Shown: positions 7,602 through 32,068, counted from the first letter of the stretch. The stretch: 32,068 nt of DNA from an uncultured Gammaproteobacteria bacterium (GCA_964485025.1 CAZAGY010000001.1:1-32068); one strand, 5' to 3'. Made by a program: numbers and translations. Notes: generated by a model not told the origin, from the letters alone.

Positions 7602-7659
7602 ATGGCATATAAAAGATTTATGTTTTCATGTTCCAATGTTTTTTCCAATCCCCAATTGA

Positions 7660-8805: not shown

Positions 8806-10683
8806 TTAATGTTCCAATGTTCCTCGTATCGGCACTAAATCGTTTAGTGTTTTGATTAAGGCTTCTTTGTCGTTCTTTTCCAACCCTTGTTGAAATTCTT
8901 TCAGGCTGTTTAAGAGTTTTTGTTCGTCAATATCAGAGAGTTTGGCAATGAATATTTTTTCGTTCTTGGTGGGAATTTCGTTTTTAGTCAGGATTTCCTC
9001 AAACAGTTTTTCGCCGGGCCGGACGCCGGTGAAAACAATAGGAATATCCACATCCGGTCGATAACCGGCCAAACGGATCATTTCTTTGGCCAAATCAACG
9101 ATTTTAATCGGTTTACCCATATCCAGGACGAAAACTTCGCCGCCTTGGCCGATGGCTCCGGCTTGCATGACCAATAGGCATGCTTCGGCCGTAATCATGA
9201 AATATCTTTTCATTTCCTGGTCAGTTACTTCCACCGGCCCGCCTTTTTCAATTTGTTTTTTAAACACCGGCACCACGCTGCCTTGGCTGCCTAAAACATT
9301 GCCGAATCTGACAGCGCAGAATTTTGTTTTGTTTTGCTTATTAAGCCAGACGCAGACCATCTCGCAGACTCTTTTGCTGGCGCCCATAATGGAAGTGGGG
9401 TTAATGGCCTTGTCCGTGGAAATCATGACGAATTTTTCCACCTGGTGCTTTAGGGCATTTTGCCCCAGGTTTAAAGTTCCGAAAATGTTATTTTTTATCG
9501 CTTCGTCCGGATTTTCTTCCATTAAGGGAACGTGTTTATAGGCGGCGGCGTGAAAAATGACCTGAGGCTTAAGGTTTTCAAAGATTTTGTCAATTTTATT
9601 CACATCGTAGATATCAGCGATGATAAACGTCTTCTTTATTTGCGGAGATAATTTATTTAAGTCTTTTTCCAGATAAAAAGTGCCGGTTTCACTTTGGTCC
9701 AGAGTAATTAAATGTCGGGGTTGGAATTTTAAAATCTGTTTACAAAGGTCGGAGCCGATTGACCCGGCGGCCCCGGTGACCAGAATGGTTTTATCGGTAA
9801 TATAGTTTTGAATTGATTGCATGTCTATTTCCACCGGATTTCGTCCCAGTAAGTCTTCAATTGATATTTCCCTTAAATGGCTTAAACTGATTTTTTCCGC
9901 CAGAATTTCCTTGGTGCTGGGCAATATTTTTATTTTTTCCACTCCGGCGACTCTGGCCAAAGATACGGTCTGGCGGATTGTTTTTTGGCTGGCGGAGGGC
10001 AGAGCGATGAATATTTCTTTAACTCCGTATTTTTGGATTATCCCCGGAAGGTCGTCTTTTTTACCCAAAACTTTAATGCCGTGGATTAAAATCCCTTGTT
10101 TCATGTAGTCGTCGTCAATAAAGCCGATAGGGGAATAAATGGTTTCTTTTGAAGAAAGAATATGCCTGACTAATTGTTCACCGGCTTCGCCGGCGCCGAT
10201 TATCAGGACCGGTTTGCCGATTATTTTTTTACCATTGCGGTTAAGGCTGATTTTAAAGCCGTGAAGATAGATTCTTTTGGAGAAACGGAAACCGCCGACC
10301 AATAGAAAGCTTAAAAATCCGGAAATGAAGATGATGGAGCGGGGAAAGCCCTCAAAAACCGGAAAATGGCGGATGATAAACATAACTGCGCCGACTGACA
10401 AAAAACCGGCAATAATTCCCCGGGCAACCCTTAAAAGCTCGCGGACGCTGATATATGACCAGGAAATGGAGTACAAATGTTCCAATAAGAAGAAAAAAAT
10501 GGTCAGGGGTACGGCCAGGGCGATAAAGCTTTTAATCATCGGCCAGTAATGAGAGGGGATTTGGCCGTCAAAACGCAATAAAAATCCCAGGACGCAGGAC
10601 AGGGAAATTAAGACAACGTCGCCAAAAATGAACAACAGTATTCGTTTGAAATTGGTTTTTTTAAATATTTTAGATACTAACAT
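8806..10683 (-). CDS. capD: Membrane-bound nucleotide-sugar 4,6-dehydratase (CapD/PglF/WbpM family)
   Basis: Four N-terminal TM segments are followed by two Rossmann motifs (IIGAGEAGEQL; VTGAAGSIGSDL). It also has FHAAAYKHVPLME, ISTDKAINPTSIMGASKR and RFGNVLGSQGSVVP, which are typical of this family. Confidence 0.9.
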   Translation of the reverse strand: MLVSKIFKKTNFKRILLFIFGDVVLISLSCVLGFLLRFDGQIPSHYWPMIKSFIALAVPLTIFFFLLEHLYSISWSYISVRELLRVARGIIAGFLSVGAVMFIIRHFPVFEGFPRSIIFISGFLSFLLVGGFRFSKRIYLHGFKISLNRNGKKIIGKPVLIIGAGEAGEQLVRHILSSKETIYSPIGFIDDDYMKQGILIHGIKVLGKKDDLPGIIQKYGVKEIFIALPSASQKTIRQTVSLARVAGVEKIKILPSTKEILAEKISLSHLREISIEDLLGRNPVEIDMQSIQNYITDKTILVTGAAGSIGSDLCKQILKFQPRHLITLDQSETGTFYLEKDLNKLSPQIKKTFIIADIYDVNKIDKIFENLKPQVIFHAAAYKHVPLMEENPDEAIKNNIFGTLNLGQNALKHQVEKFVMISTDKAINPTSIMGASKRVCEMVCVWLNKQNKTKFCAVRFGNVLGSQGSVVPVFKKQIEKGGPVEVTDQEMKRYFMITAEACLLVMQAGAIGQGGEVFVLDMGKPIKIVDLAKEMIRLAGYRPDVDIPIVFTGVRPGEKLFEEILTKNEIPTKNEKIFIAKLSDIDEQKLLNSLKEFQQGLEKNDKEALIKTLNDLVPIRGTLEH

Positions 10684-10764: not shown

Positions 10765-11367
10765 TCATATTTTACTTAAAACGGCTTTTTTTAGTTTGGA
10801 AAATTGATGTTGATTTAGATTTAATTCAGAAACCTCAGTTGTTGTTTTTAATAATTTTTTTAAATCGTCAACAAAATTTTGTTTTTTTTGTGTTTTCAAA
10901 ATTTTTAAATAGAAGTTAAAGTCAAAATTTTGCCGGAGCATGCTAATAATGTCAATTTTATCTTTTTCCCCTTTAGTAGACCCAACGCGGTCTTGGAAAG
11001 CATGTTGTTTTAAAACCATTAAAATTTCCATTTTAGGGACTGTGAAACCGGAATGTTTAACAGTATTTTTTTGTATTTCGTCATAAGGGATTCCTAAATC
11101 GGAAAAAAACGGCAGATAAATATCAATATCGGTATTATCTTGTTTAATTTCATATTTCTTTAATCTTTGGTTTTTGATCAAATCGTAATTTTTCCGTAAT
11201 TTCTCTAATTCTTGATAATCGCAGATAAAATCAATATCTTTTGATTTTAACCCATTTGTGTAAATAAAAACAGCCCATCCGCCAATTAAAATGAATTTAT
11301 ATTTATTCTTTAAGTCTTGAAGGGTTTTCCAGCTTTTTCCGGTTATTAAGTTATGGTAAAAAGACAT
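10765..11367 (-). CDS. Minimal Pol-beta-superfamily nucleotidyltransferase (putative toxin/effector of a two-gene module)
   Basis: It has the NTase signature ILIGGWAVFIYTNGLKSKDIDFI (GG...x...DxD), a second acidic cluster NTDIDIY, and a C-terminal KGEKDKIDIISML (KD..D) motif as in AbiEii/DUF-type NTases. It starts 3 nt after the upstream wHTH gene. Confidence 0.65.
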   Translation of the reverse strand: MSFYHNLITGKSWKTLQDLKNKYKFILIGGWAVFIYTNGLKSKDIDFICDYQELEKLRKNYDLIKNQRLKKYEIKQDNTDIDIYLPFFSDLGIPYDEIQKNTVKHSGFTVPKMEILMVLKQHAFQDRVGSTKGEKDKIDIISMLRQNFDFNFYLKILKTQKKQNFVDDLKKLLKTTTEVSELNLNQHQFSKLKKAVLSKI

Positions 11368-11369
11368 AA

Positions 11370-11957
11370 TTAGATATTAATTTTGTTTTTTAAGGCATTT
11401 AGAAAATCCTGCGCATACCATTCCCCGACATTCCATAAATCAACAAAGGTTTGGCACAAAGGAGTGGTTTCTCCGTAATTACGCAAGAATTTATCTTGTT
11501 TTATAACAATTAAGTTTGGATAGCCCTTTTTTGAGGGAAATCTTTTTTTTATTTCCTCCAATTCTTTTTCCTTTGAATAGATGTAAATTTTATCATAATC
11601 GGCGGGTTGATCGTCAAAGCGCTGATTATAAGCAGTGTAAAGGCCGTAAATTATTTTAGGAGGCATTAAGGCTTCAATTTTTTTAGGAGGTAAATCAACT
11701 TTCGTTTGATAAATTATATCTTTTTTTAAATTTCTATAAGTGGCCCAGAGATATAAGAATTTTTCCCTATTTATTATTCGGAAATTTCGACTATTAACTT
11801 CAATAATTTTTAATTGGCGGGGGACTTTCAGCGCATTAAAAACAGTGCTTAAAGAAATAGAAAATTTTTGGGCTAATTCTTTTTGGGTAAATTGCTCAAT
11901 ATTTTTTTCAATAGTTTGATAAAGGATTTCTCTCCAGATTATTTCTTTTTTATTCAT
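11370..11957 (-). CDS. Winged-HTH regulator, AbiEi-like putative antitoxin
   Basis: The N-terminal HTH is FTQKELAQKFSISLSTVFNALKVPRQLKIIEV. The C-terminal domain ends ...PLCQTFVDLWNVGEWYAQDFLNAL, resembling the AbiEi/COG5340 C-terminal pattern (...e.tl.Dl...). It is tightly coupled to the NTase gene. This assignment comes from pattern memory, not a search. Confidence 0.55.
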   Translation of the reverse strand: MNKKEIIWREILYQTIEKNIEQFTQKELAQKFSISLSTVFNALKVPRQLKIIEVNSRNFRIINREKFLYLWATYRNLKKDIIYQTKVDLPPKKIEALMPPKIIYGLYTAYNQRFDDQPADYDKIYIYSKEKELEEIKKRFPSKKGYPNLIVIKQDKFLRNYGETTPLCQTFVDLWNVGEWYAQDFLNALKNKINI

Positions 11958-12122: not shown

Positions 12123-12221
12123 TGGCCGTCAAAACGCAATAAAAATCCCAGGACGCGGGACAGGGAAATCAAGACAACGTCACCGAATAAAAACAGCAGT
12201 ATTTGTTTGAAGTTGGTTTTT
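12123..12221 (-). pseudogene. Remnant of a capD 5' end (codons 9-41), lacking a start codon
   Basis: A 99-nt ungapped match to 10562-10660 has 10 mismatches. It translates as KTNFKQILLFLFGDVVLISLSRVLGFLLRFDG, versus KTNFKRILLFIFGDVVLISLSCVLGFLLRFDG in the intact gene. Similarity stops abruptly at 12122/12123. Confidence 0.85.
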
Positions 12222-12222: not shown

Positions 12223-13428
12223 TCAGAACTTCATTACGGCATCAATTAGATTCTTAATGACGTAATTAATCTGATTTTTTTTCAAGTTACTATAGAAAGG
12301 AAGGGCAATAGTTCGGTCGGAAACATCTTCGGCAATCGGGAATTCTCCGCCCTTATAACCGAACAAGTTCTTATAAAACGGCTGTAAGTGAATACATTGA
12401 AAATAGTTACTGCATTGAATTCCCTTTTCCCTTAGTTTTTGCATTATTTTGTCTCTATCTTTGCGAGTGTATTTTTCAGCCAATTGAATTACATAAACAA
12501 ACCAAGATATTTTAGCTTGCCCCGCATTAAGCTTGCTTTGGTGCGGGACCCAAGGGGATTGGAAGGGGAGAGTAATTTTACCTTGTTTTGATAAATTCGC
12601 AAGTTTATTATTATACATTTTTGCCACCTTATTTCTTTTTCCAAGAATTTCCTTAATTCGGGATAATTGAGCTACGCCCAAAGCTGCGTTGATATCGCTC
12701 ATGCGGTAGTTATAACCCAACTGGACGTGTTCTAACCATTTATTCCCGTCAACTTTCCGTCCTTGATTCATCATGCTGCGGCAATTATCGGCAATGTCTT
12801 TATTATTAGTGACAATCATTCCGCCCTCCCCGGTAGTCATAGGTTTATTTGGATAAAATGAAAAAACTGCTGCATCGCCAAATGCCCCGCATTTCCGCCA
12901 CAACAGGTCGTTCCTGCCCTTAGGCAGGTGCGACCTGCCAGAGGAATATTCTGCCCCTAACGCTTCGCAAGAATCTTCAATCACTTTCAAATTATGTTTC
13001 TTGGCGATTTTTAAAATAGAGTCCCAATCAGCCGGATGGCCAAAAATATCAACAATCACCAAAGCTTTTGTTCGTTTAGTAATTGTTTTTTCAATTTTAT
13101 TCGGGTCAATGTTTAAGGTTAGGGGATCAATGTCTACAAAAATAGGCTTAGCGCCTTCGTATAGAGCACAATTGGCAGTAGCAATGAAACTGAAAGGTGT
13201 GGTGATTATTTCGCCCCCATTTTTAATACCAAGGGCTCTAATAAGTAGGTGTAATCCGGATGTGCCGGAGTTTACGGCTATGGCGTATTTAACCCCGATA
13301 TATTTGGTAAAATTATCCTCAAATTCCTTTAATTTTGGTCCTAAAGCCAAATTAGGCGTTTTTAAAACGTTTACTACGCTGTTTATTTCCTTTTGCGTAA
13401 TGTCCGGTTGTGATAAGGGAATGATCAT
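12223..13428 (-). CDS. DegT/DnrJ/EryC1/StrS-family PLP sugar aminotransferase
   Basis: Family motifs are present: AIAVNSGTSGLHL, VIEDSCEALGAEY, FSFYPNKPMTTGEGGM (PLP-lysine region) and ALPFYSNL. It carries two short insertions relative to the paralogue at 22499..23629. Confidence 0.9.
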   Translation of the reverse strand: MIIPLSQPDITQKEINSVVNVLKTPNLALGPKLKEFEDNFTKYIGVKYAIAVNSGTSGLHLLIRALGIKNGGEIITTPFSFIATANCALYEGAKPIFVDIDPLTLNIDPNKIEKTITKRTKALVIVDIFGHPADWDSILKIAKKHNLKVIEDSCEALGAEYSSGRSHLPKGRNDLLWRKCGAFGDAAVFSFYPNKPMTTGEGGMIVTNNKDIADNCRSMMNQGRKVDGNKWLEHVQLGYNYRMSDINAALGVAQLSRIKEILGKRNKVAKMYNNKLANLSKQGKITLPFQSPWVPHQSKLNAGQAKISWFVYVIQLAEKYTRKDRDKIMQKLREKGIQCSNYFQCIHLQPFYKNLFGYKGGEFPIAEDVSDRTIALPFYSNLKKNQINYVIKNLIDAVMKF

Positions 13429-14369: not shown

Positions 14370-15361
14370 TTTTTTATTTTAAAATAAGTTAAAATTCCCC
14401 AAACAGATCCGAATCCGTAACAAAAGTGTAGGGTAAAAAAGAAAACAGGAAGTAATAGAAAATATTTTAACCCGTTTTTTTTGGCGATTTTGAAAGAAAA
14501 AAATAAATTGCCGGCAATATATGGAAAAACAATTAAAAATAAAAGCCATTTTCCTATTGGGTTAATAAAAAAAATTAAGACACTTCCTAATAAACCAACA
14601 ACAAAACAAAGAGGAGCAAAATGTCTTAGGTGGAGAGAGCCAGGAACTAATCTAGAGGTATAAACATTCCACAAGCCATTAGAAAAACCTTGTTTAGCAA
14701 ATTTAACAAAGGAATCAGAACAATGATAATATGATTTTATTTCTGGGGTCATAAAGATTTTACCCCCGTTTTTTATCAAACGAGTATTAAATTCAATATC
14801 GTGATTGCGAATTAATTTTTCGTTAAATAATCCGATTTTATTAAAAATATTTTTTCGATAGGCTCCATAAGCAACCGTATCCACATATTCTTCTTTTTGT
14901 GAATAACGAAAATTAGCCCCTCCGACCCCAAAAGGCGAGCCGAGGATAAAAGAAATAATTCTTCCAATAAATGATTCGCCAATAGTTTCAATTGGTCCAC
15001 CAACGCAATCAGCCTGAGTTTTTTCTAAATATTCAACATTTTTAGCAATAAAATTTTTATCTACGAAGCTGTGAGCGCCTAAAAATATAATTATTTCTCC
15101 TTTAGCTTTCTTTATCCCCAAATTGAAACCAAAAGAATTGAATTTTTTATGATTGTCTAAGAGTTCAATTTGATAATGGGAATTAGAGGTTTGAAATTTT
15201 TTGATTATTTCCTTAGTGTTGTCCGTACTTACTCCATCAACAACAATGATTTCAAAATTTTCTTTTGGATAATTCTGATTAATTAAAGAATAAAGACACT
15301 TTTCTATGTGTTTTTCTTCATTTCTACAAGCAATGATAGTTGAGACAAAGGAATTAATCAT
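14366..15361 (-). CDS. Family 2 glycosyltransferase with C-terminal membrane segments
   Basis: It has the GT-A N-terminus VSTIIACRNEEKHIEKCLYSLINQNYPKENFEIIVVDGVSTDNT and an ...HDIEFN (DxD-like) region. The C-terminus has 3-4 TM helices. Confidence 0.85.
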   Translation of the reverse strand: MINSFVSTIIACRNEEKHIEKCLYSLINQNYPKENFEIIVVDGVSTDNTKEIIKKFQTSNSHYQIELLDNHKKFNSFGFNLGIKKAKGEIIIFLGAHSFVDKNFIAKNVEYLEKTQADCVGGPIETIGESFIGRIISFILGSPFGVGGANFRYSQKEEYVDTVAYGAYRKNIFNKIGLFNEKLIRNHDIEFNTRLIKNGGKIFMTPEIKSYYHCSDSFVKFAKQGFSNGLWNVYTSRLVPGSLHLRHFAPLCFVVGLLGSVLIFFINPIGKWLLFLIVFPYIAGNLFFSFKIAKKNGLKYFLLLPVFFFTLHFCYGFGSVWGILTYFKIKK

Positions 15362-15370: not shown

Positions 15371-17233
15371 TTATTTATTCAAAATAAATTTTCTGCCCCA
15401 TAATTCTAAAATGAAAAATCTGAAAAATAGATTACTGGCATAAACCGACCACCCCGATCTATATTTTTTAAAACGATCTAACAATTTTTTAATGTCAATG
15501 TAATTTGAGAGGAAAGAAGCGTTTCTAAAGACAGAATCAATATCTGTATAAATTATTTTTTTAAACCAAATATCTTCGGGAGTATCGAAGCCCAATTTAT
15601 TTTTTCTCAATCTTATTTTTTTCGGCAAAATTCCCTTCATCGCATTTCTTAAGACAAACCTAGTCCAGCCATTCCGCATCTTTTGATTAAGCGGGAGAGC
15701 AGATATAAATTCTACTAATTGATAATCTAAAAACGGTACCCTGGCCTCAATGGCAAAAGCCATTGAATTTTTATCTTCATAACGTAAGAGCACCGGTAAA
15801 CTCCAAGAGGTAAAGTCCCTTTTAATGCGCCCCCCAATATTATTTTGATAACCAAAGGTTAGATTTTGTTCGTTAAATTTATTTAAAAATTGCGGATTGA
15901 ATAGGGTGTCTAATTTTAATAAATTTTTTCCTATTCTGAAATATTTTAATCCCTGCTTAATGTTTAAGGTTTTTAAAATATCAATTGACGAAAAGAACTT
16001 CGCGCACTCATTAATAAATAAAAGATATCGGCGGTTCTGCAGAAGTTTTTGTAAATAAAAGATATAAAATTTTCTGTAACCACACAACATTTCATCACCT
16101 CCTTGTCCATCCAATAAAACTTTAATTTTCTTATTCGCCATTTCCATTACTTTCCACTGAGCGTAAATACTAGTACTGGCGAAAGGTTCTTCTTGGTGCC
16201 AAAGTAATTTATCTAAATCTTGTAAAAATTTTGTTGGCTTAGGAAAAACATAATTTTTTTCGGCGCCAGTTTGCTTAATTATTTGTTTGATATATTTTCT
16301 CTCGTCAAAACGTTTTGTTTTAAAACAAGCAGAAAACGTTTTTTGTTTTTCTCCAATATTCAATATTTTTTCTTTTTTTAATAAATTATTAACCACACAA
16401 ACTATTGAAGAAGAATCTAAACCCCCTGAGAGACAAGAGCCAATTGGCACATCGCTTCTTAGGCGAATTTTTACCGCATTAATAAATAACTTGCGAAAAT
16501 TTTCGGCGCATTTTTGGTCAGAAGATAAATTATTAATTTCATCAGAAACATTAAAATCCCAGTAATTTTTTATAGTTACTAGCTCGTTATGTTTAATTTT
16601 TAACCAAGAGGCGGCGGGTAATTTTTTAATATTTTTGAAAAATGTTTCATCGGTATGATCTAAAATTCCAAATTTCAAGAAATCATAAATTAATTTATCA
16701 TTCGGCTCTCTGTGAATATTGTATTCTAAAATTGCTTTTATTTCCGAGGCAAAAATAAATTTTTCGTTATCATTATAATAATAAAATGGTTTAATACCAA
16801 ATCTATCTCGGCTACAAAAAAGTTCTTGTTTTTTATTATCCCAAATAGCAAAAGCCCACATTCCATTAAATTTTTTAACGCAGTCGGCTCCCCATTCCTC
16901 ATAAGCGTGGATAATAATCTCAGTATCAGTGTTTGATCTAAAGTGATGTTTTAGTTTTTTTAATTCGTAGCGGATCTCCAGATAGTTATATATTTCGCCG
17001 TTATAGGTAATCCAAATAGTTTTATCTTCGTTAGTCATCGGTTGATGGCCAAGGGGAGATAAATCAATAATTGAAAGGCGACGGTGTCCCAAACCCAGTT
17101 TTTTATTAGGCGATAAATAAATACCGGCGTCGTCTGGTCCGCGGTGAACCATTGTATCGCGCGCTTTAATTAAAGTTGGTTCATTCACCAACAGGTTGTT
17201 TTTATAATAAAAAATTCCAACTATTCCGCACAT
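15371..17233 (-). CDS. asnB: Glutamine-hydrolysing asparagine synthase-like amidotransferase (AsnB/WbpS type)
   Basis: The N-terminal nucleophile MCGIVGIF and the Ntn glutaminase domain (HRGPDD, RLSIIDL) are present. The synthetase domain has the PP-loop SCLSGGLDSS. Confidence 0.9.
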   Translation of the reverse strand: MCGIVGIFYYKNNLLVNEPTLIKARDTMVHRGPDDAGIYLSPNKKLGLGHRRLSIIDLSPLGHQPMTNEDKTIWITYNGEIYNYLEIRYELKKLKHHFRSNTDTEIIIHAYEEWGADCVKKFNGMWAFAIWDNKKQELFCSRDRFGIKPFYYYNDNEKFIFASEIKAILEYNIHREPNDKLIYDFLKFGILDHTDETFFKNIKKLPAASWLKIKHNELVTIKNYWDFNVSDEINNLSSDQKCAENFRKLFINAVKIRLRSDVPIGSCLSGGLDSSSIVCVVNNLLKKEKILNIGEKQKTFSACFKTKRFDERKYIKQIIKQTGAEKNYVFPKPTKFLQDLDKLLWHQEEPFASTSIYAQWKVMEMANKKIKVLLDGQGGDEMLCGYRKFYIFYLQKLLQNRRYLLFINECAKFFSSIDILKTLNIKQGLKYFRIGKNLLKLDTLFNPQFLNKFNEQNLTFGYQNNIGGRIKRDFTSWSLPVLLRYEDKNSMAFAIEARVPFLDYQLVEFISALPLNQKMRNGWTRFVLRNAMKGILPKKIRLRKNKLGFDTPEDIWFKKIIYTDIDSVFRNASFLSNYIDIKKLLDRFKKYRSGWSVYASNLFFRFFILELWGRKFILNK

Positions 17234-17239: not shown

Positions 17240-17416
17240 TTAATAATTTTGCACTCCATTTTCCCAATCATATTTTTTGAAATCCTCTTTTATTTCTTTA
17301 TCGTCCATTCCATCAGCAGCAATGACTTCAAGATTTTCTTTTGGATAAGTTTGTTGAATTAAAGAATTGAGGCACATTTCTATGTGTTTTTTTTCATTTC
17401 GGTAAGCAACAACCAT
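17240..17416 (-). pseudogene. Truncated copy of the GT2 5' end (about 58 codons)
   Basis: MVVAYRNEKKHIEMCLNSLIQQTYPKENLEVIAADG...KEIKEDFKKY parallels IIACRNEEKHIEKCLYSLINQNYPKENFEIIVVDG...KEIIKKF of 14366..15361. The nucleotide match runs from 17307 to about 17425 versus 15231 to about 15350, roughly four-fifths identical by eye. It stops after 58 codons. The longer track ORF (to 17536) overlaps the GT4 gene 3' end and is not credible. Confidence 0.8.
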
Positions 17417-17450
17417 GGAAGACAAAAATTGGCTAATTTTTAAAAAATAA

Positions 17451-22012: not shown

Positions 22013-22505
22013 TAATACTCATTACCAATACATCGTGAAATTTATTATGTTTAAATATTTTGTCTTTAAGAACGCCTTCCTTTTCAAATCCACATTTTTC
22101 ATATAATTTAATAGCTCTTTTATTAGTGATAAATACTTCTAAATAAATTCGATGTAAATTTAATTTTTTAATAGCATAATCAATAATTTTCTTAACTAAG
22201 ATTCCGCCATATCCTTTCCCTTGTACTTCTGGAGACAAACAAAACCCAACCTCACAAGAACTATTTGCACGGTCTATATGGTTTATTTGACCATAGCCAA
22301 CAGGAATTTTATCATCAAGAAGAACAAACATTAAGTATGTTTTATTATTTAAGTAATAGTTTTCATACCATTTTTTTTGGGCTTTTTTGGAAATTTTTAC
22401 GTCTTTATAAAGGTACTTATTTATTTCGGGATGATTTCGAATTCTTCTTAAGAATTCTAAATAGCGTTTTTTTAATGGGATTAGAGTAATTTTCATATTT
22501 ACCAC
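22002..22505 (-). CDS. GNAT-family N-acetyltransferase
   Basis: The acetyl-CoA binding motif QGKGYGGILVKKIIDYA (Q/RxxGxG/A) and ...NKRAIKLYEKCGFEKEG are present. Its position after an aminotransferase suggests amino-sugar N-acetylation. Confidence 0.85.
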   Translation of the reverse strand: MVNMKITLIPLKKRYLEFLRRIRNHPEINKYLYKDVKISKKAQKKWYENYYLNNKTYLMFVLLDDKIPVGYGQINHIDRANSSCEVGFCLSPEVQGKGYGGILVKKIIDYAIKKLNLHRIYLEVFITNKRAIKLYEKCGFEKEGVLKDKIFKHNKFHDVLVMSIIVK

Positions 22506-23629
22506 CCTTGATTTATTATTTTAGATATTTGATAGATGTCATTTTTAGTCATTAATGTATGTATTGGCAGAGAAATAATATTTTTCGCGATTTTTGTAAC
22601 ATTTTTAATATCGGCTCTACATTTTTTATACATTGGATAGGTGTTATTAGGTATGTAATGTACACCCGGAGCTATTCCGCTAGCTTTTAGTTTAGCGATT
22701 AAATCGTCCCTTCTTTTAACTTGTATTACATATAAATGTTGGGAGGTAATTATATTTGGCGATGTATAAGGTAGAGATATAATATCAGAATTCTTTAATT
22801 TTTGATTATAAATTGCAGCTAATTTTCTTCGATAGATATTTTGTTTGTTCAATAATTTTAATTGTTCTATGCCAATTGCCGCATTAATATCATTCATATG
22901 ATATTTATAACCAACTTCAGGCACGTCGTATTGCCAAGCATAAGTGCCAGTTTTTTTCTTATCATTAGTCGTTCTATTGTAAGTGCTCTTGTCTATCCCT
23001 AACCACCTTAATTTATTTAGTCTTTCGTATTGCTCTTTGCTGTTAGTTGTGATCATTCCACCATCACCAACTGGTAAATTCTTAACCGCATGAAAACTGA
23101 AACAAGTTAAGCCAAAAGAACCAATTTTTTTATTTTTATAAGATGCACCGCAAGCGTGGGCCGCATCTTCAATTACTTTAAGATTATATTTTTTAGCTAT
23201 CTGATAGATTCTATCCAAATCACAAGGATGGCCTCCATAATGCATAGCTATTATTGTTTTTGTTTTTTTTGAAATCATTCTCTCAATAGATAACGGATCA
23301 AGACAATAAGTTTTTGGATCAATGTCAGCAAAAACAGGAATAGCTTTTTGGTAAAGAATAACATGGTTAGTTGAAACAAAGGTGAGGGGAGTTGTGATAA
23401 CTTCATCGCCCTCTTTTATTCCATTGACTATCAAGGCAAGGTGAAGGGCCGCAGTACATGAATTAAGCGCTACGGCATATTTTACTCCAATATATTTGGC
23501 AAATTTTTTTTCAAATTCGGCGGTTTTGGGACCAAGTCCAATCCAGCCCGACCTAAGAACGCTAACAACGGCTTTTATTGCCGCTTCAGAAATATTTGGT
23601 TTAAGAAGTTGAATAAAATTTTTTTTCAT
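22499..23629 (-). CDS. DegT/DnrJ/EryC1/StrS-family PLP sugar aminotransferase
   Basis: Family motifs are present: AVALNSCTAALHLAL, VIEDAAHACGASY, FSFHAVKNLPVGDGGM and ISLPIHTLM. Confidence 0.9.
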   Translation of the reverse strand: MKKNFIQLLKPNISEAAIKAVVSVLRSGWIGLGPKTAEFEKKFAKYIGVKYAVALNSCTAALHLALIVNGIKEGDEVITTPLTFVSTNHVILYQKAIPVFADIDPKTYCLDPLSIERMISKKTKTIIAMHYGGHPCDLDRIYQIAKKYNLKVIEDAAHACGASYKNKKIGSFGLTCFSFHAVKNLPVGDGGMITTNSKEQYERLNKLRWLGIDKSTYNRTTNDKKKTGTYAWQYDVPEVGYKYHMNDINAAIGIEQLKLLNKQNIYRRKLAAIYNQKLKNSDIISLPYTSPNIITSQHLYVIQVKRRDDLIAKLKASGIAPGVHYIPNNTYPMYKKCRADIKNVTKIAKNIISLPIHTLMTKNDIYQISKIINQGW

Positions 23630-28019: not shown

Positions 28020-29513
28020 TTATTTTGTTTTTAATAATTTGAAGATAAAATTTAAATCTTTAAATGTCGAATAATTAGTCCATTTATGAAATAAAAATAT
28101 GCACCCCAAAAAAGTTATTATACCGAAAAAAACAGAAACAAAAAATCCGATTAATTGAAATTGGTTTAAAAACTTTCCGAGAATGAATATGATCACCGAC
28201 ATTGCAAATGTAGCAAAAAATGGAGGCAGGAACACTTTTGTATAGTCATTTATTTTTAAGTCACTCAATTTGGCGATTTCAAATAGAAACATAGGTAAAC
28301 AAGCACAAATAGCCAGAAGCACGGCTAATGAAGTTCCTGTTATTTTCCACATCATAGTTAAAGGGTAAATTGTAATTGCTAAGGTAAGTACCCTAATGAG
28401 GTTTATTTTAAAATCAATGTCTGGTCTTCCTTTAGCGCTAAATAATGCGCCACTTGTGCCGATTATTTCTCTAATTAATGACGAAATGGCCAATATTCTT
28501 AAAGCTGGAACTATTGGCATCCATTTGTTTCCTAAAAATATTTGAGTGAGTTGTGGAGCTAATAAAAATATTCCACCAGCAAGTGGTATGGTTAAAAAAG
28601 CAAAAAGTCTTATCATTTTTAGATAAGCATTTTTTAATTTTGGGAGGTCGTCTTGCAGTTTAGAATAAATAGGAAAAGCTATTCTTGATAAAATACCGAT
28701 TTCTGAGGACGGTAAATTAGCTAGACGAAAAGCCATTTGATAAAAACCCAGAGCAACGACGCCTAAAATTTTACTGACAAATAAATCATCGCCTTGGGTG
28801 GCAAGAAAAACAACAATACTTGAACCAAAAACCCATTTTCCAAAATTAAACAAATTTTTTGCCTTTTTAAATTCCAGATAGAAATGTGGTCTATATGGAT
28901 GGATAAAATAACTTACAACAAGTCTAACAAAATTCCCAGCTAACAATCCAAATACAAGTGCCCAAACATTTTTAAATATTAAAGCAACGGAAATCGCTAC
29001 AATAAAGTCTGCTAACGTGCCACTCAGTTGATAAATAAATTCTTTGTTGAATTCTAGTTCTTTCCGAAAGTAAATTACGCCGATATTAGTAAAAGCTCCT
29101 AATAATATTGAAAATCCAATGAGTTGAATTATCAGTTTTGCTTGTGGTGCTTTAAAAAAGACTGCGGCATAGGGACCGATGAAGTACAAAATTACAAATA
29201 GAATAAATCCACGGATGATTGCTATTGTCCAGGCAGTATTAAGATAAGATTCAGTATCATCCTTTTTTTGAATTAGAGCAGAATCAAATCCAGTTTGAGA
29301 AAAAGTTTCTAATACAGACATCGTTAATAAAGCGATTCCCATTAAACCAAAATCGTATGGAGCGAGAACACGTGCTAAAATTACCAATCTAATAAAGCTA
29401 AAAATTCGTTCAACTATTTTTGACGCAATTAACCAAATTCCGCTTTTAATTGAGCGTTGAGAAAGATTTTCTCCCGGCCTTATTAAGTTATCTAAGAATT
29501 TTTTAAAGATCAT
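28020..29513 (-). CDS. wzx: Wzx-type oligosaccharide flippase (MOP/PST family)
   Basis: It has about 12-14 TM helices. The N-terminus ...KSGIWLIASKIVERIFSFIRLVILARVLAPYDFGLMGIALL is typical of polysaccharide biosynthesis (Polysacc_synt) flippases. Confidence 0.85.
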   Translation of the reverse strand: MIFKKFLDNLIRPGENLSQRSIKSGIWLIASKIVERIFSFIRLVILARVLAPYDFGLMGIALLTMSVLETFSQTGFDSALIQKKDDTESYLNTAWTIAIIRGFILFVILYFIGPYAAVFFKAPQAKLIIQLIGFSILLGAFTNIGVIYFRKELEFNKEFIYQLSGTLADFIVAISVALIFKNVWALVFGLLAGNFVRLVVSYFIHPYRPHFYLEFKKAKNLFNFGKWVFGSSIVVFLATQGDDLFVSKILGVVALGFYQMAFRLANLPSSEIGILSRIAFPIYSKLQDDLPKLKNAYLKMIRLFAFLTIPLAGGIFLLAPQLTQIFLGNKWMPIVPALRILAISSLIREIIGTSGALFSAKGRPDIDFKINLIRVLTLAITIYPLTMMWKITGTSLAVLLAICACLPMFLFEIAKLSDLKINDYTKVFLPPFFATFAMSVIIFILGKFLNQFQLIGFFVSVFFGIITFLGCIFLFHKWTNYSTFKDLNFIFKLLKTK

Positions 29514-29714
29514 TTCACTAAATTTTTATAGCAGATATTATTTTTTAAATTTAATTTTAATTTTTTATTTTTATCATCTTGATTTTATTTCACTGAGTAT
29601 GATCTCGCAAACGTATCCTCTAAATATAGAAACGCTACAAACGGAATATACGAATGTTACGAATCAAATATATGAATGACACAAATTACGAATAATGTGT
29701 AGTAAATTTTATTT

Positions 29715-29782
29715 ATAAAACTTTTTGATTTTTTGAATGATATAATTTTATTTTTTTTCAGCGAGTTCGGGATAAATCGGCA
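29715..29782 (-). pseudogene. Remnant A of a DegT-aminotransferase 3' end (in-frame stop)
   Basis: A 68-nt ungapped match to 31906-31973 has about 6 mismatches. The minus strand reads LPIYPELAEKK*NYIIQKIKKFYK*, versus LPIYPELTEKEQNYIIQKIKEFYH in the intact gene end. Confidence 0.75.
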
Positions 29783-29903
29783 GGAAGAAATGAAACCAGC
29801 ACCGATAATAGAGTAGTTCATAAATTTGATTTTTAATTTTTTGTTTTATTTTGTTTTAGATTTTTGAATTATTGGAAAGAGTTAGTTGTTTTGAGGTTGG
29901 GTG

Positions 29904-29931
29904 TGGACAATTTTTATAATTCCATTATAAC
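29904..29931 (+). promoter_or_regulatory. Possible promoter for the nuclease gene
   Basis: TGGACA (29904-29909), a 16-nt spacer and TATAAC (29926-29931) lie about 40 nt upstream of the ATG at 29971. This is weak evidence in AT-rich DNA. Confidence 0.25.
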
Positions 29932-29970
29932 AAAAGTATAAATATAAACAGAAAGTTCTAAATAATTTAT

Positions 29971-30813
29971 ATGATAAAATTTAATATAGGAATAGGAAAA
30001 TTGAGCCGGCGCGACATAAGAGATTTGATTTTGGGCGGGATTATTATCGTTGCCGGAATACTTGGTGTGGTTACTTTATTTAACGGGACTGAAGGATTAA
30101 GAAAGTTTTTAAGCGGAATACTTGTTATTTTAATGACCATATTAATAGCTAGTGGGATAATTTCTTCGGAAATGAATTCCAATGCGATTTCTGAATCAGA
30201 AGCTAATTTAGTATCAGTTGTCAGAGTAATTGACGGCGACACAATAGTTGTAGATGGAGACGTTCATGTTCGTCTCTTAGGGATTGATGCTCCTGAAGCA
30301 GGGGATTGTTTCTATGAAGAATCTAAAGACGCTCTTGTAAATCTTGTTGACGGAGAAGAGGTTCGCTTGGAGAAAGATATTTCCGATAAGGACAATTTCG
30401 GGCGTTTGCTCAGATACGTGTTTTTGGAAAATAATTTATTTGTTAACGATTCTCTTTTAGAAGAAGGGTATGCGGATGTTTTGCCTTCTGGTCAAGATTT
30501 ACTATATAGGAGACTTTTAACCTCCAGTCGCAATCAGGCGATTACACAACGCCAAGGCATGTGGGGGGCCTGTGAAAATCAGGAAGAAGAGGCGGAAACC
30601 ATTTTTCCTTTGGAAAAAAATGATGTTCCAACCGATTCGGAATGTCTTATTAAGGGTAATATCTCAGAACACGGATACGGCCGAACTTATTTTTCTCCCG
30701 GCGACCCCAATTATGACACGGTAAAAGTGTCTTTTGACAAAGGGGAACAGTTTTTTTGCACAGAGCAGGAAGCCGAAGCGGCAGGCTACAAAAAGGCGGC
30801 AACTTCTTATTAG
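29971..30813 (+). CDS. Membrane-anchored thermonuclease (SNase-fold) with a Cys-containing C-terminal module
   Basis: Two N-terminal TM segments precede the SNase core VVRVIDGDTIVVDGDVHVRLLGIDAPEAGDCFYEESKDAL...GRLLRYVF...EGYA. The C-terminal motif is CLIKGNISEHGYGRTYFSPGDPNYDTVKVSFDKGEQFFCTEQEAEAAGYKKA. Confidence 0.85.
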   Translation: MIKFNIGIGKLSRRDIRDLILGGIIIVAGILGVVTLFNGTEGLRKFLSGILVILMTILIASGIISSEMNSNAISESEANLVSVVRVIDGDTIVVDGDVHVRLLGIDAPEAGDCFYEESKDALVNLVDGEEVRLEKDISDKDNFGRLLRYVFLENNLFVNDSLLEEGYADVLPSGQDLLYRRLLTSSRNQAITQRQGMWGACENQEEEAETIFPLEKNDVPTDSECLIKGNISEHGYGRTYFSPGDPNYDTVKVSFDKGEQFFCTEQEAEAAGYKKAATSY

Positions 30814-30856
30814 GATATTTTGTAAAAAGATCTGATTTTTTGAATGATATAATTAT
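30810..30856 (-). pseudogene. Remnant B of a DegT-aminotransferase 3' end (short)
   Basis: The minus strand reads NYIIQKIRSFYKIS*. The core tgattttttgaatgatataatt differs at 1 position from 31917-31938 of the intact gene. Its stop overlaps the nuclease stop codon. Confidence 0.55.
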
Positions 30857-30884
30857 TTAGAAGATACTGGTAAAGAGATTAATT

Positions 30885-31826
30885 TTACCTCTTTCGTTTT
30901 CTGTCGCGAATATATCTTTCAATCGCTTCTTTAGTGGTTAACCAGTTTCTTTTTTCTTTATGCGCTTCCAATTTCCCTTGCCGAACCAAAAGATTAAGAT
31001 ATTTCGCCGAATAAGGACAAAAATTGCTTGCTTCTTTTAAGGTAAGAATTTTTTCTCTTTTTTTGGAAATAGGAGTAAGGGTTTTTAAATAAATATCCAA
31101 AGAACGTTCTATTGCTTGCGCGATAAATCGGATAAAGGGGATTAAATTATTTTTATCAGCTTCGGCCAATACTCGGTAATATTTTTTTCTATCATTTTTT
31201 AATACAATAACCAATGGATACCCCGTTCGCATTAAAATTAAATTCATTATTAATCTTGCCGTTCTGCCGTTTCCATCAAAGAAGGGATGGATATAAGTTA
31301 ATTTATGATGAATTATAACGGCTAATTCGATTAGGTGCGATTTCTTTTGATTTTGCCTCCACCATTTTATTAGTTTTCCCATTTCGTATGGAACATCAAT
31401 GGCCTCCGGCGGTTTATGCTCCGCGCCGCCAATAATCACGCCACTGTTTCTATATCTTCCCGCCCATTCTTTGTCAGTCTCCTGAATGATTAATTGATGT
31501 AAACCGCGAATCAGCTGTTCGGAAATGGTCTGTTTTTTGTCTTTTTCTATTAAGTCAGATAAGTATTCCAATGCTTCATAATGATTTTTCGCTTCAAGGT
31601 GGTCTTTAAGAGGTTTTCCTTTTATGGTGATTCCTTCGTTAATTACCAAAAATGTTTCTTTTAAAGTTAGGCTATTCCCTTCAATCCCATTTGAGTTGTA
31701 AGTCATTTCTATCCTAAATTGTTCCCTAAGTTTTTTAACGGCCGAAGGTGGTAAGGGCCTAAGTTTATTCAGGGCTTTTAATTTATTTTCAATTCTGTCT
31801 TTTATTTTTTTTTCCAAATATTGCAT
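30885..31826 (-). CDS. Fic-family protein (class II, self-inhibited AMPylase type) with C-terminal excisionase/MerR-like HTH
   Basis: The Fic motif HPFFDGNGRTARL (HxFx[DE]GNGRxxR) is present. The N-terminal inhibitory motif SNGIEG fits [ST]xxxE[GN]. The C-terminus is LTLKEASNFCPYSAKYLNLLVRQGKLEAHKEKRNWLTTKEAIERYI (HTH_17-like). Confidence 0.9.
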   Translation of the reverse strand: MQYLEKKIKDRIENKLKALNKLRPLPPSAVKKLREQFRIEMTYNSNGIEGNSLTLKETFLVINEGITIKGKPLKDHLEAKNHYEALEYLSDLIEKDKKQTISEQLIRGLHQLIIQETDKEWAGRYRNSGVIIGGAEHKPPEAIDVPYEMGKLIKWWRQNQKKSHLIELAVIIHHKLTYIHPFFDGNGRTARLIMNLILMRTGYPLVIVLKNDRKKYYRVLAEADKNNLIPFIRFIAQAIERSLDIYLKTLTPISKKREKILTLKEASNFCPYSAKYLNLLVRQGKLEAHKEKRNWLTTKEAIERYIRDRKRKR

Positions 31827-31875
31827 AGAAAATAAGGGTTAATATGGTTTATCTATATTTTTATAATATACCATA

Positions 31876-32067
31876 TTAAGAAATGTTATCAAGTTTTTGG
31901 ACGTGATAAAACTCTTTGATTTTCTGAATGATATAATTTTGTTCTTTTTCAGTGAGTTCAGGATAAATCGGCAAAGAAAGGACTTCTCGGCAGGCTTTTT
32001 CCGTTTCCGGCAAAGAGCCTTTTTTATATTTCAAATATTTAAAGGCGGGCTGGAGATGAAGAGGATA
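31876..32067 (-). CDS. DegT/DnrJ/EryC1/StrS-family aminotransferase, 3' end only (gene continues beyond the window)
   Basis: The minus-strand frame is open from the window edge: YPLHLQPAFKYLKYKKGSLPETEKACREVLSLPIYPELTEKEQNYIIQKIKEFYHVQKLDNIS*. This is the canonical DegT C-terminus (PLHLQPAF...P.aE......LSLPiyPeLt.e). It is absent from the ORF track because it has no Met and is truncated. Confidence 0.85.
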   Translation of the reverse strand, partial: YPLHLQPAFKYLKYKKGSLPETEKACREVLSLPIYPELTEKEQNYIIQKIKEFYHVQKLDNIS

Positions 32068-32068
32068 C

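What the first reader, a model, noticed from the sequence alone, without database searches (positions are those of the whole stretch)
29715..31973. Three nested copies of one aminotransferase 3' end bracket a nuclease gene and a Fic gene
The intact DegT gene ends at 31876. Its last about 25 codons (LPIYPELTEKEQNYIIQKIKEFY) recur twice downstream as decayed fragments. Remnant B is at 30810-30856 (NYIIQKIRSFYKIS*). Remnant A is at 29715-29782 (LPIYPELAEKK*NYIIQKIKKFYK*; 68 nt with about 6 mismatches and a CAA to TAA stop). The Fic-HTH gene lies between the intact end and B. The SNase nuclease gene lies between B and A. After A comes the normal spacer and wzx. This is what two successive insertions at the same gene end would produce, each bringing its own version of the DegT terminus and displacing the previous one. 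The DegT 3' end therefore behaves as a reusable cassette-acquisition site that has collected a toxin-type and a nuclease-type gene. As an alternative or additional role, the conserved core contains TGATATAAT (an extended -10) on the plus strand, which in remnant A points toward the nuclease gene.
Basis: partly seen in the sequence, partly recalled or inferred. Interest (0 to 1): 0.75.

Follow-up and report, generated by a model that had tools for sequence, protein, structure and literature searches.

The report
Aminotransferase gene-end copies: two different scars
The three copies of the aminotransferase gene end are real, but they come from two events: a mobile Fic defence gene inserted at the gene's end and pushed the old end downstream, and a second copy of the sugar-modification operon beside the nuclease gene was deleted and left a stub.

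Summary
Copy C (31906-31982) lies inside the intact DegT 3' end. Copy A (29715-29785) is 91% identical to C. Copy B (30815-30884) is shorter and more decayed. The shared 21-mer occurs 3 times against 0.02 expected, and it is not a dispersed element.

The Fic-HTH gene (SoFic-like) behaves as a mobile unit with its own promoter. In four loci it sits between a DegT 3' segment and a displaced DegT end, and that displaced end carries the same 17-nt deletion in all four. In other Patescibacteria genomes the same unit sits between duplicated 3' ends of two other genes. Its synonymous divergence between relatives (dS 0.04) is far below that of the adjacent DegT (0.70).

The SNase gene is not cargo. 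In a relative it is the divergent upstream neighbour of a GFO-Hexapep-DegT operon. Copy A is fused to the first 12 codons of that GFO gene, so it is a deletion scar. The closest relative carries a longer version of this kind of scar.

The same window has three more gene-end duplications flanking inserted genes: at recA (AbiE), at CapD (nucleotidyltransferase plus HTH) and at a GT2 gene (AsnB). The mechanism is inferred, not shown. The closest documented architecture is the terminus duplication around mobile ORFs in fungal mitochondria.

The parts
31876..32068 (-). 3' end of a DegT/DnrJ/EryC1-type aminotransferase gene, cut by the contig end
   Evidence: Translation. It aligns with the DegT C-termini of L024, L026 and L037, which carry Pfam PF01041.
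31906..31982 (-). Copy C: the functional DegT 3'-terminal segment (..SLPIYPELTEKEQNYIIQKIKEFY)
   Evidence: It is 91% identical to A but only 78% identical to the equivalent segment of L026.
31827..31905 (-). Left end of the Fic unit. It supplies the last 10 DegT codons (HVQKLDNIS*, 31876-31905) and a promoter-like site (TTGATA-16-TATATT, 31892-31865).
   Evidence: The same tail follows every Fic-linked DegT segment (L026, and the detached copy in L024/L025), whereas plain DegT alleles end FYK* or FYEKK*. The stretch 31883-31839 is conserved upstream of Fic in the non-DegT contexts L027-L036. Promoter scan.
30885..31826 (-). Fic-HTH_17 gene, SoFic-like. It carries the HPFFDGNGRTAR active-site motif and an SNGIEG inhibitory-type motif.
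   Evidence: Pfam Fic 7.5e-24 and HTH_17 3.2e-6. PADLOC SoFic 1.4e-40. More than 100 clusters at 70-95% identity, with source names from Patescibacteria lineages.
30815..30884 (-). Copy B: the displaced native DegT 3' end that travels with Fic, decayed and with a 16-17-nt deletion
   Evidence: The same left part and the same deletion are found in the window, L024, L025 and L026. It starts at the Fic stop codon.
30786..30813 (+). Novel last 8 codons of SNase (YKKAATSY*): a recombination joint between the Fic-B segment and SNase
   Evidence: Five relatives end ..EAAGF[VM]KNES[FW]*. Nucleotide homology to all of them stops at 30785.
29971..30813 (+). Thermonuclease (SNase) gene with an N-terminal membrane segment. 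It is a resident neighbour, not cargo.
   Evidence: Pfam SNase 7.4e-13. Its homologues fall off gradually in identity (85, 79, 72, 71%...). Contexts in L037, L038, L040 and L042.
29822..29970 (.). Native divergent intergenic region between SNase and the former GFO gene. It holds a promoter-like site for SNase at 29891-29920 (+).
   Evidence: The same divergent arrangement is seen in L037 (93-nt spacer) and in L042.
29786..29821 (-). Remnant of the first 12 codons of a GFO_IDH_MocA oxidoreductase gene (MNYSIIGAGFIS)
   Evidence: 82% nucleotide match to the start of the L026 GFO gene. 10 of 12 residues match the L024 and L026 GFO N-termini.
29715..29785 (-). Copy A: the last ~24 codons of the deleted resident DegT gene, with an in-frame stop, joined to the GFO stub within ATTTCTTCC (TTTCT is shared by both parent sequences)
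   Evidence: A longer homologous scar is present in L042.
29514..29714 (.). Native spacer between DegT and wzx. It contains three ATTCGTAW motifs at 29648-29693.
   Evidence: The stretch 29671-29752 is 80% identical to the sequence after the displaced DegT end in L026. Motif positions.
28020..29513 (-). wzx-type flippase (Polysacc_synt_3)
   Evidence: Pfam 1.2e-80.

Best explanation
The three DegT-end copies are scars of two unrelated rearrangements in a Patescibacteria glycan locus.

(1) Fic insertion. A compact mobile unit, made of a promoter and a SoFic-like Fic-HTH gene of about 1.03 kb, sits at the 3' end of DegT. The gene now reads through its own terminal segment (copy C) into 10 codons supplied by the unit. 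The previous DegT end was pushed downstream and decays there (copy B). This arrangement is shown. It is old and shared: the displaced end carries the same deletion in four loci.

How the unit spreads is inferred. Once a gene is flanked by two copies of a conserved gene terminus, those copies can act as homology arms. RecA-type recombination with a naive DegT allele, or loop-out and re-entry as a circle, would then insert or remove the unit and recreate the duplication each time. No recombinase is needed in the unit.

(2) Operon deletion. SNase is the resident divergent neighbour of a second GFO-Hexapep-DegT operon that lay directly upstream of wzx. A deletion from GFO codon 12 to about 24 codons before the DegT stop, at a short TTTCT microhomology, removed that operon. 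It left copy A fused to a GFO start stub. The stub and the fusion are shown; the order of events is inferred.

(3) Joining. The DegT-Fic-B segment was joined to the 3' end of SNase by illegitimate recombination, which replaced the last 8 SNase codons. The joint is shown.
For: - Repeats are real and above chance. An independent assembly is identical over A-SNase-B-Fic.
- The Fic unit is bracketed by a DegT 3' segment and a displaced end in the window, L024, L025 and L026. The displaced end has the same 16-17-nt deletion in all four.
- The HV[SQ]KLDNI[SF]* tail is found only on Fic-linked DegT segments. The Fic promoter region is conserved in non-DegT contexts.
- The history is mosaic. Between L024 and L026, dS is 0.037 for Fic, 0.225 for GFO and 0.695 for DegT. 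Between the window and L026, dS is 0.28 for Fic while the adjacent DegT 3' part is saturated. The high-identity tract between L024 and L026 ends exactly at the end of the displaced DegT end.
- The same Fic unit sits between duplicated 3' ends of other genes: HTH_17 in L027 and the 193-aa gene X in L045 and L046, twice in L046.
- SNase is resident. L037 has SNase divergent from GFO-Hexapep-DegT-...-wzx.
- The GFO stub is identified at nucleotide and protein level. L042 has a longer GFO|DegT scar next to SNase.
- The SNase tail is replaced and homology stops at 30785.
- A differs from C by 3 synonymous and 4 non-synonymous codon changes, one of them CAA to TAA. Three of the changes are G-to-A or C-to-T, as expected for neutral decay.
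- There is no hairpin in the repeat, no Rfam family, and no integrase among the window ORFs scanned against Pfam.
Against: - The upstream part of the intact DegT operon lies beyond the contig end. Whether a GFO-Hexapep pair precedes it is unknown.
- A is closer to C (91%) than to the L042 scar (76%). This needs gene conversion, a recent within-lineage duplication or a close donor, and it is unresolved.
- The scars in L042 and in the window have different breakpoints. They may be independent deletions or successive erosion of one.
- The homology-arm mechanism is not shown. L024 has the DegT own end with its stop codon immediately followed by the detached DegT segment. A simple double crossover does not predict this arrangement; it fits a discrete unit inserted by another route.
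- The first insertion of Fic into each new host gene (DegT, HTH_17, gene X) cannot be explained by carried homology.
Confidence: 0.65

Rival explanations
1. Two successive cassette insertions (SNase first, then Fic) occurred at the same DegT 3' end. Each brought its own DegT terminus and displaced the previous one.
For: Three direct copies have one gene between each pair, at similar spacing (1107 and 1084 nt). True multi-cassette arrays at a gene end exist in relatives (L024; L046).
Against: A is fused to a GFO start stub. SNase is the native divergent neighbour of GFO in L037. L042 keeps a longer GFO|DegT scar at the same place. SNase homologues show a gradual fall in identity and stable glycan-locus contexts. 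The B|SNase joint clips the SNase coding sequence.
Confidence: 0.07
2. Site-specific integration. The DegT terminal segment is an att-like site, or the target of a homing endonuclease. A trans-acting integrase or endonuclease elsewhere in the genome inserts cassettes that lack a recombinase, as in accretion of cis-mobilizable elements at a gene 3' end or homing of mobile ORFs.
For: - The left and right limits of the Fic unit are nearly the same in three host-gene contexts: just upstream of its -35 box, and at its stop codon.
- The detached DegT segment in L024 and the displaced DegT end start at about the same DegT position, GAAGT.
- GIY-YIG elements with perfect 14-16-nt terminal inverted repeats lie in the same loci. 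One is flanked by a recoded duplicate of the WecB 5' end.
- A and B share an identical 22-nt core.
Against: No integrase or endonuclease lies in or next to the Fic unit, or among the window ORFs scanned against Pfam. The targets in DegT, HTH_17 and gene X are unrelated sequences. The duplicated lengths vary from 32 to more than 120 nt. The repeats have no hairpin.
Confidence: 0.2
3. Segmental tandem duplication within this lineage. A block containing SNase, GFO, Hexapep and DegT, with or without Fic, was duplicated. The second copy was then trimmed by deletions, which left A.
For: A and C are 91% identical, far closer than orthologues in relatives at 76-78%. The pattern of differences looks like decay from a near-identical copy.
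Against: It needs at least three steps: duplication, loss of the second Fic, and the GFO-DegT deletion. SNase is single-copy in the contig. The clipped SNase 3' end points to an illegitimate joint with foreign sequence rather than a clean tandem junction. L042 already has a scar without Fic next to SNase.
Confidence: 0.15
4. The repeats are copies of a dispersed intergenic element (promoter, REP or MITE-like), or they are an assembly artefact.
For: The core contains TGATATAAT on the plus strand. The sequence comes from a metagenome.
Against: The 21-mer gave only 12 single hits in the metagenome collection, none at a DegT end or in an array, and none in viral contigs. There is no Rfam match and no structure. 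The copies translate as DegT C-termini. A second assembly is identical over both junctions. The copies differ by 9-14%, unlike k-mer collapse artefacts.
Confidence: 0.03

Closest known systems
Mobile-ORF (mORF, free-standing homing endonuclease) gene hybrids in fungal mitochondria: atp6, atp9, cox2 and nad3 in Glomus, and atp6 in Allomyces (PMC3630166; also PMC6279837)
   Same: The architecture is the same: host gene core, then an inserted terminus read in frame, then the mobile ORF, then the native terminus as an untranslated downstream duplicate. The inserted and native termini differ in sequence, and the arrangement spreads horizontally. The GIY-YIG/WecB case in L026 is a mirror image at a 5' end, with synonymously recoded codons.
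   Different: Here the cargo is a Fic/SoFic-type defence gene (elsewhere AbiE, a nucleotidyltransferase-HTH pair, AsnB), not an endonuclease. The host is a bacterial chromosome of the Patescibacteria. In the window the upstream copy C looks resident rather than foreign.
Integrative elements that target the 3' end of a gene and restore it, and their tandem accretion with cis-mobilizable elements, such as the ICESt1/ICESt3-CIME arrays at the fda 3' end in Streptococcus thermophilus (from my own knowledge, not checked here)
   Same: Direct repeats made of a gene's 3' end bracket the inserted DNA. Repeated use of the same end gives three or more repeat copies with one element between each pair. 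Elements without a recombinase can sit in such arrays.
   Different: No integrase or excisionase system is identified. The units are single genes of about 1 kb. The same Fic unit is bracketed by the ends of three unrelated genes. Repeat lengths vary from 32 to more than 120 nt.
Integron gene cassettes
   Same: Arrays of single promoter-poor or compact genes are separated by a recurring punctuation sequence, and the cargo is enriched in defence and toxin genes.
   Different: There is no IntI. The punctuation is host-gene coding sequence without the imperfect palindrome of attC. The Fic unit has its own promoter.
Gene remnants at recombination junctions of polysaccharide (O-antigen, capsule) loci, and toxin-antitoxin islets spread by recombination in flanking core genes (PMC13617665)
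   Same: Copy A, the AsnB/GT2 duplicate and the remnant of a UDP-sugar dehydrogenase 3' end in L042 are ordinary fossils of module replacement in a glycan locus. Small toxin or defence islets that lack mobile-element genes are thought to move by homologous recombination.
   Different: That literature, as far as I read it, does not describe systematic duplication of the adjoining gene terminus around each islet.

Membership tests
DegT/DnrJ/EryC1 aminotransferase 3' coding end (identity of the repeat) | The repeat is in frame with a DegT ORF and matches the C-terminal sequence of family members | tested here: met
   C is in frame. All copies align with the C-termini of the PF01041 proteins of L024, L026 and L037.
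Fic / SoFic defence protein | Fic domain with the HPFx[DE]GNGRxxR motif, and a match to the SoFic profile | tested here: met
   Pfam Fic 7.5e-24. PADLOC SoFic 1.4e-40 over profile positions 31-329 of 361. HPFFDGNGRTAR is present in the translation.
Fic / SoFic defence protein | Confers protection against phage | not testable with these tools
   This needs an experiment. The host is uncultured.
Integron cassette array | An IntI-type tyrosine recombinase next to the array | tested here: not met
   No integrase domain among the window ORFs scanned against Pfam, nor in the Pfam listings of genes called in L024-L054.
Integron cassette array | The punctuation repeat is an imperfect palindrome (attC) that folds as single-stranded DNA | tested here: not met
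   The DegT-end repeat copies fold no better than shuffles (z +0.65 to +1.9).
Integrative element with att duplication of a gene 3' end (including accretion arrays) | Direct repeats derived from the target gene end bracket the insert | tested here: met
Integrative element with att duplication of a gene 3' end (including accretion arrays) | A site-specific recombinase is encoded by the element or shown to act in trans at a fixed core | tested here: not met
   The element encodes none. Action in trans cannot be tested here. The core shared by A and B is 22 nt, but the crossover point cannot be determined.
mORF / free-standing homing-endonuclease terminus duplication | Order: gene core, inserted terminus, mobile ORF, native terminus remnant | tested here: met
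   Window, L026, L024, L045 and L046. Description of the family: PMC3630166.
mORF / free-standing homing-endonuclease terminus duplication | The mobile ORF encodes a LAGLIDADG or GIY-YIG endonuclease that cuts the empty site | tested here: not met
   The ORF is Fic-HTH. GIY-YIG genes occur nearby in L024 and L026 but not in the window unit.
Dispersed repeat (REP, MITE or promoter element) | Many copies at unrelated loci | tested here: not met
   Only 3 copies in the window, all at this locus. There were 12 single chance hits in metagenome contigs, none in a DegT-end frame, and none in viral contigs.

The most novel reading that the evidence does not exclude
In Patescibacteria, single-gene defence and selfish units (SoFic-like Fic, AbiE, nucleotidyltransferase-HTH, 23S-IVP four-helix proteins, GIY-YIG) form integron-like arrays without an integrase. 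Each unit enters at the terminus of a conserved gene and is left flanked by a 30-120-nt duplicate of that terminus. The duplicates then serve as portable homology arms, so the host's own recombination after DNA uptake can copy the unit into any genome with that gene end. It can also stack several units at one end and loop them out again. An unknown trans-acting activity, for example the ubiquitous 81-aa HTH_17 proteins or GIY-YIG enzymes, might make the first cut.
Probability: 0.3. Interest if true: 0.7.

Novelty: new variant of a known kind. Interest (0 to 1): 0.5.

Why it matters
How small defence and toxin genes that lack any mobility gene get into and move between bacterial chromosomes is an open question. 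It is hardest for uncultured, reduced-genome Patescibacteria, which are thought to rely on DNA uptake. This locus and its relatives give a readable signature: a duplicated gene terminus on both sides of the unit. That signature marks such insertions, dates them, and could be searched for genome-wide.

If the duplicates do act as carried homology arms, that would explain recombinase-free spread and stacking of defence genes at conserved gene ends.

There is also a practical point. Short 'pseudogene' stubs in glycan loci have at least two origins, displaced termini and deletion scars. The neighbouring fragment tells them apart; here it was the 12 GFO codons.

Tried and rejected
- Exact look-ups of the Fic and wzx proteins found nothing on record. 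Only the SNase protein was on record.
- The wzx-based scan of GTDB genomes gave relatives of 59% identity or less, from unrelated phyla and with different upstream genes. It was not informative about cassette alleles.
- The 21-mer scan of metagenome contigs returned 12 chance hits and no relatives. The viral contig scan returned none.
- A dispersed element or structured RNA was rejected.
- The extended -10 promoter reading was rejected as unnecessary and not conserved (and the L026 sequence).
- A target-site duplication made by staggered cuts was considered as a general mechanism. It was rejected for several cases because the two copies differ mostly at synonymous sites or by serine-codon switches and in-frame indels. 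They therefore diverged as functional genes in different lineages (WecB in L026; CapD; GT2; gene X in L045).
- An ATTCGTAW decamer-like motif downstream of A was tested as cassette punctuation. It is not enriched over the window.
- dN/dS calls for Fic window vs L027 and SNase window vs L042 were misaligned and are not used.
Full report
**1. The observation.**

The window is a complete 32,068-nt metagenomic contig. The SNase protein is on record with a longest contig of exactly that length.

On the minus strand it carries a long glycan-biosynthesis locus: Wzz, a CapD-like dehydratase, DegT, several glycosyltransferases, AsnB, Wzy, and a wzx flippase at 28020-29513. At the right end, a DegT-family aminotransferase gene runs off the contig and stops at 31876.

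Three direct copies of its terminal coding segment are present:
- C at 31906-31982, inside the gene.
- A at 29715-29785. It matches C at 62/68 nt ungapped, or 79 nt at 88.6% with one gap, E=6e-22.
- B at 30819-30854, 86-89% identical over 36 nt.

The shared 21-mer occurs three times against 0.02 expected. An independently assembled ENA contig, L041, is 100% identical to window 29514-31251, which spans A, SNase, B and a third of Fic. The junctions are therefore not peculiar to one assembly.

**2. The repeat is not a dispersed element.**

- The 21-mer hit 12 metagenome contigs once each. None of these hits lies at a DegT end, so they are chance matches in AT-rich DNA.
- It hit no viral contig.
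- The window has no Rfam match.
- None of the copies folds better than shuffled sequence (z +0.65 to +1.9).

**3. The Fic gene is an inserted, horizontally exchanged unit, and B belongs to it.**

The protein has a Fic domain and a C-terminal HTH_17 domain. It matches the SoFic defence profile at 1.4e-40. More than 100 protein clusters share 70-95% identity with it; those named by their sources come from Patescibacteria lineages (Wolfebacteria, Nealsonbacteria, Parcubacteria), and many sit on contigs of only 1.1-1.2 kb.

The two closest homologues lie downstream of a GFO_IDH_MocA-Hexapep-DegT operon (L024 and L026). Nucleotide comparison gives the following:
- Window 31967-30815 aligns to L024 3728-4879 and to L025 at 91.6%.
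- Window 32067-30837 aligns to L026 at 90.4%.

In all four loci the Fic stop codon is followed at once by a decayed DegT end. The left part (AATTAATCTCTTTGCCTGTATTTTCTAA) and a 16-17-nt deletion are the same in every case. This displaced end, B in the window, is therefore a shared derived feature that travels with Fic.

Upstream of Fic, every Fic-linked DegT segment continues into the tail HV[SQ]KLDNI[SF]*. Plain DegT alleles end FYK* (L024's own gene, and remnant A) or FYEKK* (L037). The tail overlaps a promoter-like site, TTGATA-16-TATATT at 31892-31865. The stretch 31883-31839 is also conserved upstream of Fic in loci where there is no DegT (L027-L036).

Divergence is discontinuous at the unit's edges:
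- Window vs L026: DegT body 80%, repeat 78%, tail and promoter 88%, Fic 93%, displaced end 75%.
- dS between L024 and L026: 0.037 for Fic, 0.225 for GFO, 0.695 for DegT.
- dS between the window and L026: 0.28 for Fic, with the adjacent 54 DegT codons saturated.
- The 97.6% tract shared by L024 and L026 stops exactly at the end of the displaced DegT end.

**4. The same unit sits in duplicated ends of other genes.**

- In L027-L036, Fic lies in an array of NYN, AbiEii, NERD and PDDEXK genes. The array is punctuated by four copies of the last 32 nt of an HTH_17 gene.
- In L045-L054, Fic follows a 193-aa gene X. The last 55-61 nt of gene X recur right at the Fic stop codon. In L046 they recur again after a second, divergent Fic.
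- In L024, the DegT gene keeps its own end and stop codon. This is followed immediately by a second DegT 3' segment, which is itself interrupted by a GIY-YIG element with perfect 16-nt terminal inverted repeats. Then come the tail, Fic, the displaced end and an HTH_17 gene.

**5. SNase is not cargo, and A is a deletion scar.**

SNase homologues fall off gradually in identity (85, 79, 72, 71, 70%...) and always lie in glycan loci with a convergent HTH_17 gene. In L037 the order is SNase, a 93-nt divergent spacer, GFO_IDH_MocA, Hexapep, DegT, further genes and wzx.

In the window, the 36 nt directly upstream of A on the minus strand (29786-29821) encode MNYSIIGAGFIS. This matches the first 12 residues of the L024 and L026 GFO proteins (MNFSIIGTGFIS..) and is 82% identical in nucleotides to the start of the L026 gene. 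The joint lies in ATTTCTTCC, and TTTCT is present in both parent sequences.

L042 carries the closest SNase found (85% aa). At the same place it has GFO codons 1 to about 70, with a W-to-stop change, fused to the last ~35 DegT codons (..SLPIYPELSLKDQNYIIQRIKEFYT*). This is a longer scar of the same kind. Beyond SNase, L042 has a free HTH_17 gene rather than Fic.

A is thus what remains of a resident SNase|GFO-Hexapep-DegT-wzx operon. Its differences from C are 3 synonymous and 4 non-synonymous codon changes, including CAA to TAA. Three of the changes are G-to-A or C-to-T, as expected for decay.

The other junction is also visible. Five relatives end SNase with ..EAAGF[VM]KNES[FW]*, whereas the window has ..EAAGYKKAATSY*. 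Nucleotide homology to all of them stops at 30785. The DegT-Fic-B segment was therefore joined inside the last codons of SNase by illegitimate recombination.

**6. What stays open about the history.**

- A is much closer to C (91%) than to the L042 scar (76%) or than C is to L026 (78%). Gene conversion between A, B and C (A and B share an identical 22-nt core), a within-lineage duplication, or a close donor could each explain this.
- The contig ends 95 nt upstream of C, so the genes ahead of the intact DegT are unknown.
- The L042 and window scars differ in both breakpoints. They may be independent deletions or successive erosion of one.

**7. The pattern recurs in this window.**

- **recA.** A segment of the recA 3' end (5271-5334) recurs at 7013-7075, right after an AbiEi/AbiEii pair at 5628-7018. 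[12 protein letters not shown] is preserved in the remnant, and a terminator-like hairpin follows at 7100-7134.
- **CapD.** The first ~100 nt of the CapD-like gene (10562-10660) recur at 12123-12221 at 90%. This remnant lies directly after the stop of another DegT gene and ahead of an HTH plus DUF6036 nucleotidyltransferase pair (10765-11957). Of the 10 differing codons, 6 are synonymous.
- **GT2.** The 5' end of a GT2 gene (15233-15333) recurs at 17309-17409 at 84%, with in-frame indels, on the far side of an AsnB-type gene.

Relatives add three more cases:
- A 42-nt remnant of the WecB 5' end before a GIY-YIG element in L026, with nearly every codon recoded synonymously.
- A 48-nt 5'-end repeat around a sulfotransferase gene in L037.
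- A presence/absence polymorphism of a 23S-IVP cassette, flanked by ~100-120-nt copies of an intergenic palindrome (L049 against L045).

In several of these pairs the two copies diverged under protein-level selection. They therefore come from different lineages, not from a fresh staggered-cut duplication.

**8. Mechanism.**

What is shown: the architecture (gene core, terminal segment, unit, displaced terminus), its recurrence at unrelated gene ends, and the separate evolutionary history of the unit.

What is inferred: once two copies of a conserved terminus flank a unit, they provide homology on both sides to any naive allele. Ordinary recombination after DNA uptake can then insert the unit and regenerate the duplication. 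Recombination between the copies can loop the unit out. Repeated entry would stack units.

Three observations fit this:
- The exchanged tract ends at the displaced DegT end.
- Copy C is of resident type over its whole length.
- There is no recombinase in the unit.

Two observations do not fit:
- It does not explain the first entry into each new host gene.
- It does not explain the L024 arrangement.

These points, together with the nearly constant unit limits, keep a site-specific or endonuclease-driven route alive; I give that rival 0.2.

**9. Comparison with known systems.**

The closest documented architecture is the mobile-ORF gene hybrids of fungal mitochondria. There an endonuclease ORF brings a foreign C-terminus that is read in frame, and the native C-terminus persists downstream (PMC3630166; PMC6279837). 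The present case shares that order but not the endonuclease.

From my own knowledge, integrative elements that restore a targeted gene 3' end, and their accretion arrays, are the closest bacterial analogue. The defining recombinase is missing here. The integron criteria (IntI, a folded attC) were tested and not met. Copy A on its own is an ordinary recombination fossil of a glycan locus.

I did not find a description of terminus-duplicated, recombinase-free defence units in Patescibacteria in the searches I ran. That is weak evidence of absence.

**10. Verdict.**

- Novelty: a new variant of a known kind.
- Interest is moderate (0.5). The triple repeat itself is largely explained. The recurrent terminus-duplication signature around defence genes in these genomes deserves a systematic survey.

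Noticed in passing
window 5271-5334 and 7013-7075; cassette 5628-7018: A segment of the recA 3' end (..[12 protein letters not shown]..) is duplicated directly after an AbiEi/AbiEii pair inserted downstream of recA. A terminator-like hairpin (7100-7134) follows the remnant. This is the same terminus-duplication signature as at DegT/Fic.
   Followed up: partly
window 10562-10660 and 12123-12221; cassette 10765-11957: The first ~100 nt of the CapD-like (Polysacc_synt_2) gene are duplicated at 90% right after the stop of an upstream DegT gene. An HTH plus DUF6036 nucleotidyltransferase pair lies between the remnant and the intact gene. The intact gene has 8 new N-terminal codons. Most of the differing codons are synonymous.
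   Followed up: partly
window 15233-15333 and about 17270-17420; inserted gene 15371-17233: The 5' end of a GT2 glycosyltransferase gene is duplicated (84%, with in-frame 6-nt and 3-nt indels) on the far side of an AsnB-type amidotransferase gene. Ordinary glycan genes, not only defence genes, are therefore flanked by such remnants.
   Followed up: partly
L024 3338-3728 and L026 7501-7763: Small GIY-YIG genes are bounded by perfect terminal inverted repeats: CCCCCACACCAATTAT/ATAATTGGTGTGGGGG in L024 and ACCCCGCACATTCT/AGAATGTGCGGGGT in L026. One is inserted inside the Fic-linked DegT segment. The other lies between a 42-nt remnant of the WecB 5' end and the intact, synonymously recoded WecB start.
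   Followed up: partly
L049 1943-2771 compared with L045 3261-3370: A presence/absence polymorphism of a 23S_rRNA_IVP (four-helix bundle) gene. The occupied allele has three copies of a ~100-nt palindromic Wzy-X intergenic element around the gene. The empty allele has one copy.
   Followed up: partly
L027 6000-6060, 8581-8631, 8709-8769, 9219-9259; window 29648-29693; L024 5195-5230: Phased roughly 10-nt repeats of the type ATTCG[CT]AWAA / ATCCGCWTAA follow the 3' ends of several cassettes and of the DegT remnant. They might be protein-binding sites or terminator substitutes. They are not enriched over the whole window.
   Followed up: partly
window 7317-7460 and 7645-7714, 8771-8795: A 21-nt tandem repeat (GTTTTCTACTCCATCTAATCG, about 5 copies) lies inside or next to a small coiled-coil ORF (7152-7547). 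Eight-nt CCAATTAC-type repeats flank the Wzz gene. L026 has similar CTTACCC-type runs near or within the WecB 5' region.
   Followed up: no
L042 1654-1848: A remnant of the 3' end of a second UDP-sugar dehydrogenase (..VVDTRNAIKSRKYKTVFHL*) lies between an intact UDP-glucose dehydrogenase gene and HTH_17. This is another gene-end fossil in a relative's glycan locus.
   Followed up: no
window 22499-23629 and 12223-13428: Two further DegT-family genes lie in the same contig. Their C-termini are different (..LPFYSNLKKNQINYVIKNLIDAVMKF* and ..LPIHTLMTKNDIYQISKIINQGW*) and they do not carry the repeat. They share only a 65% identical 203-nt internal stretch.
   Followed up: yes
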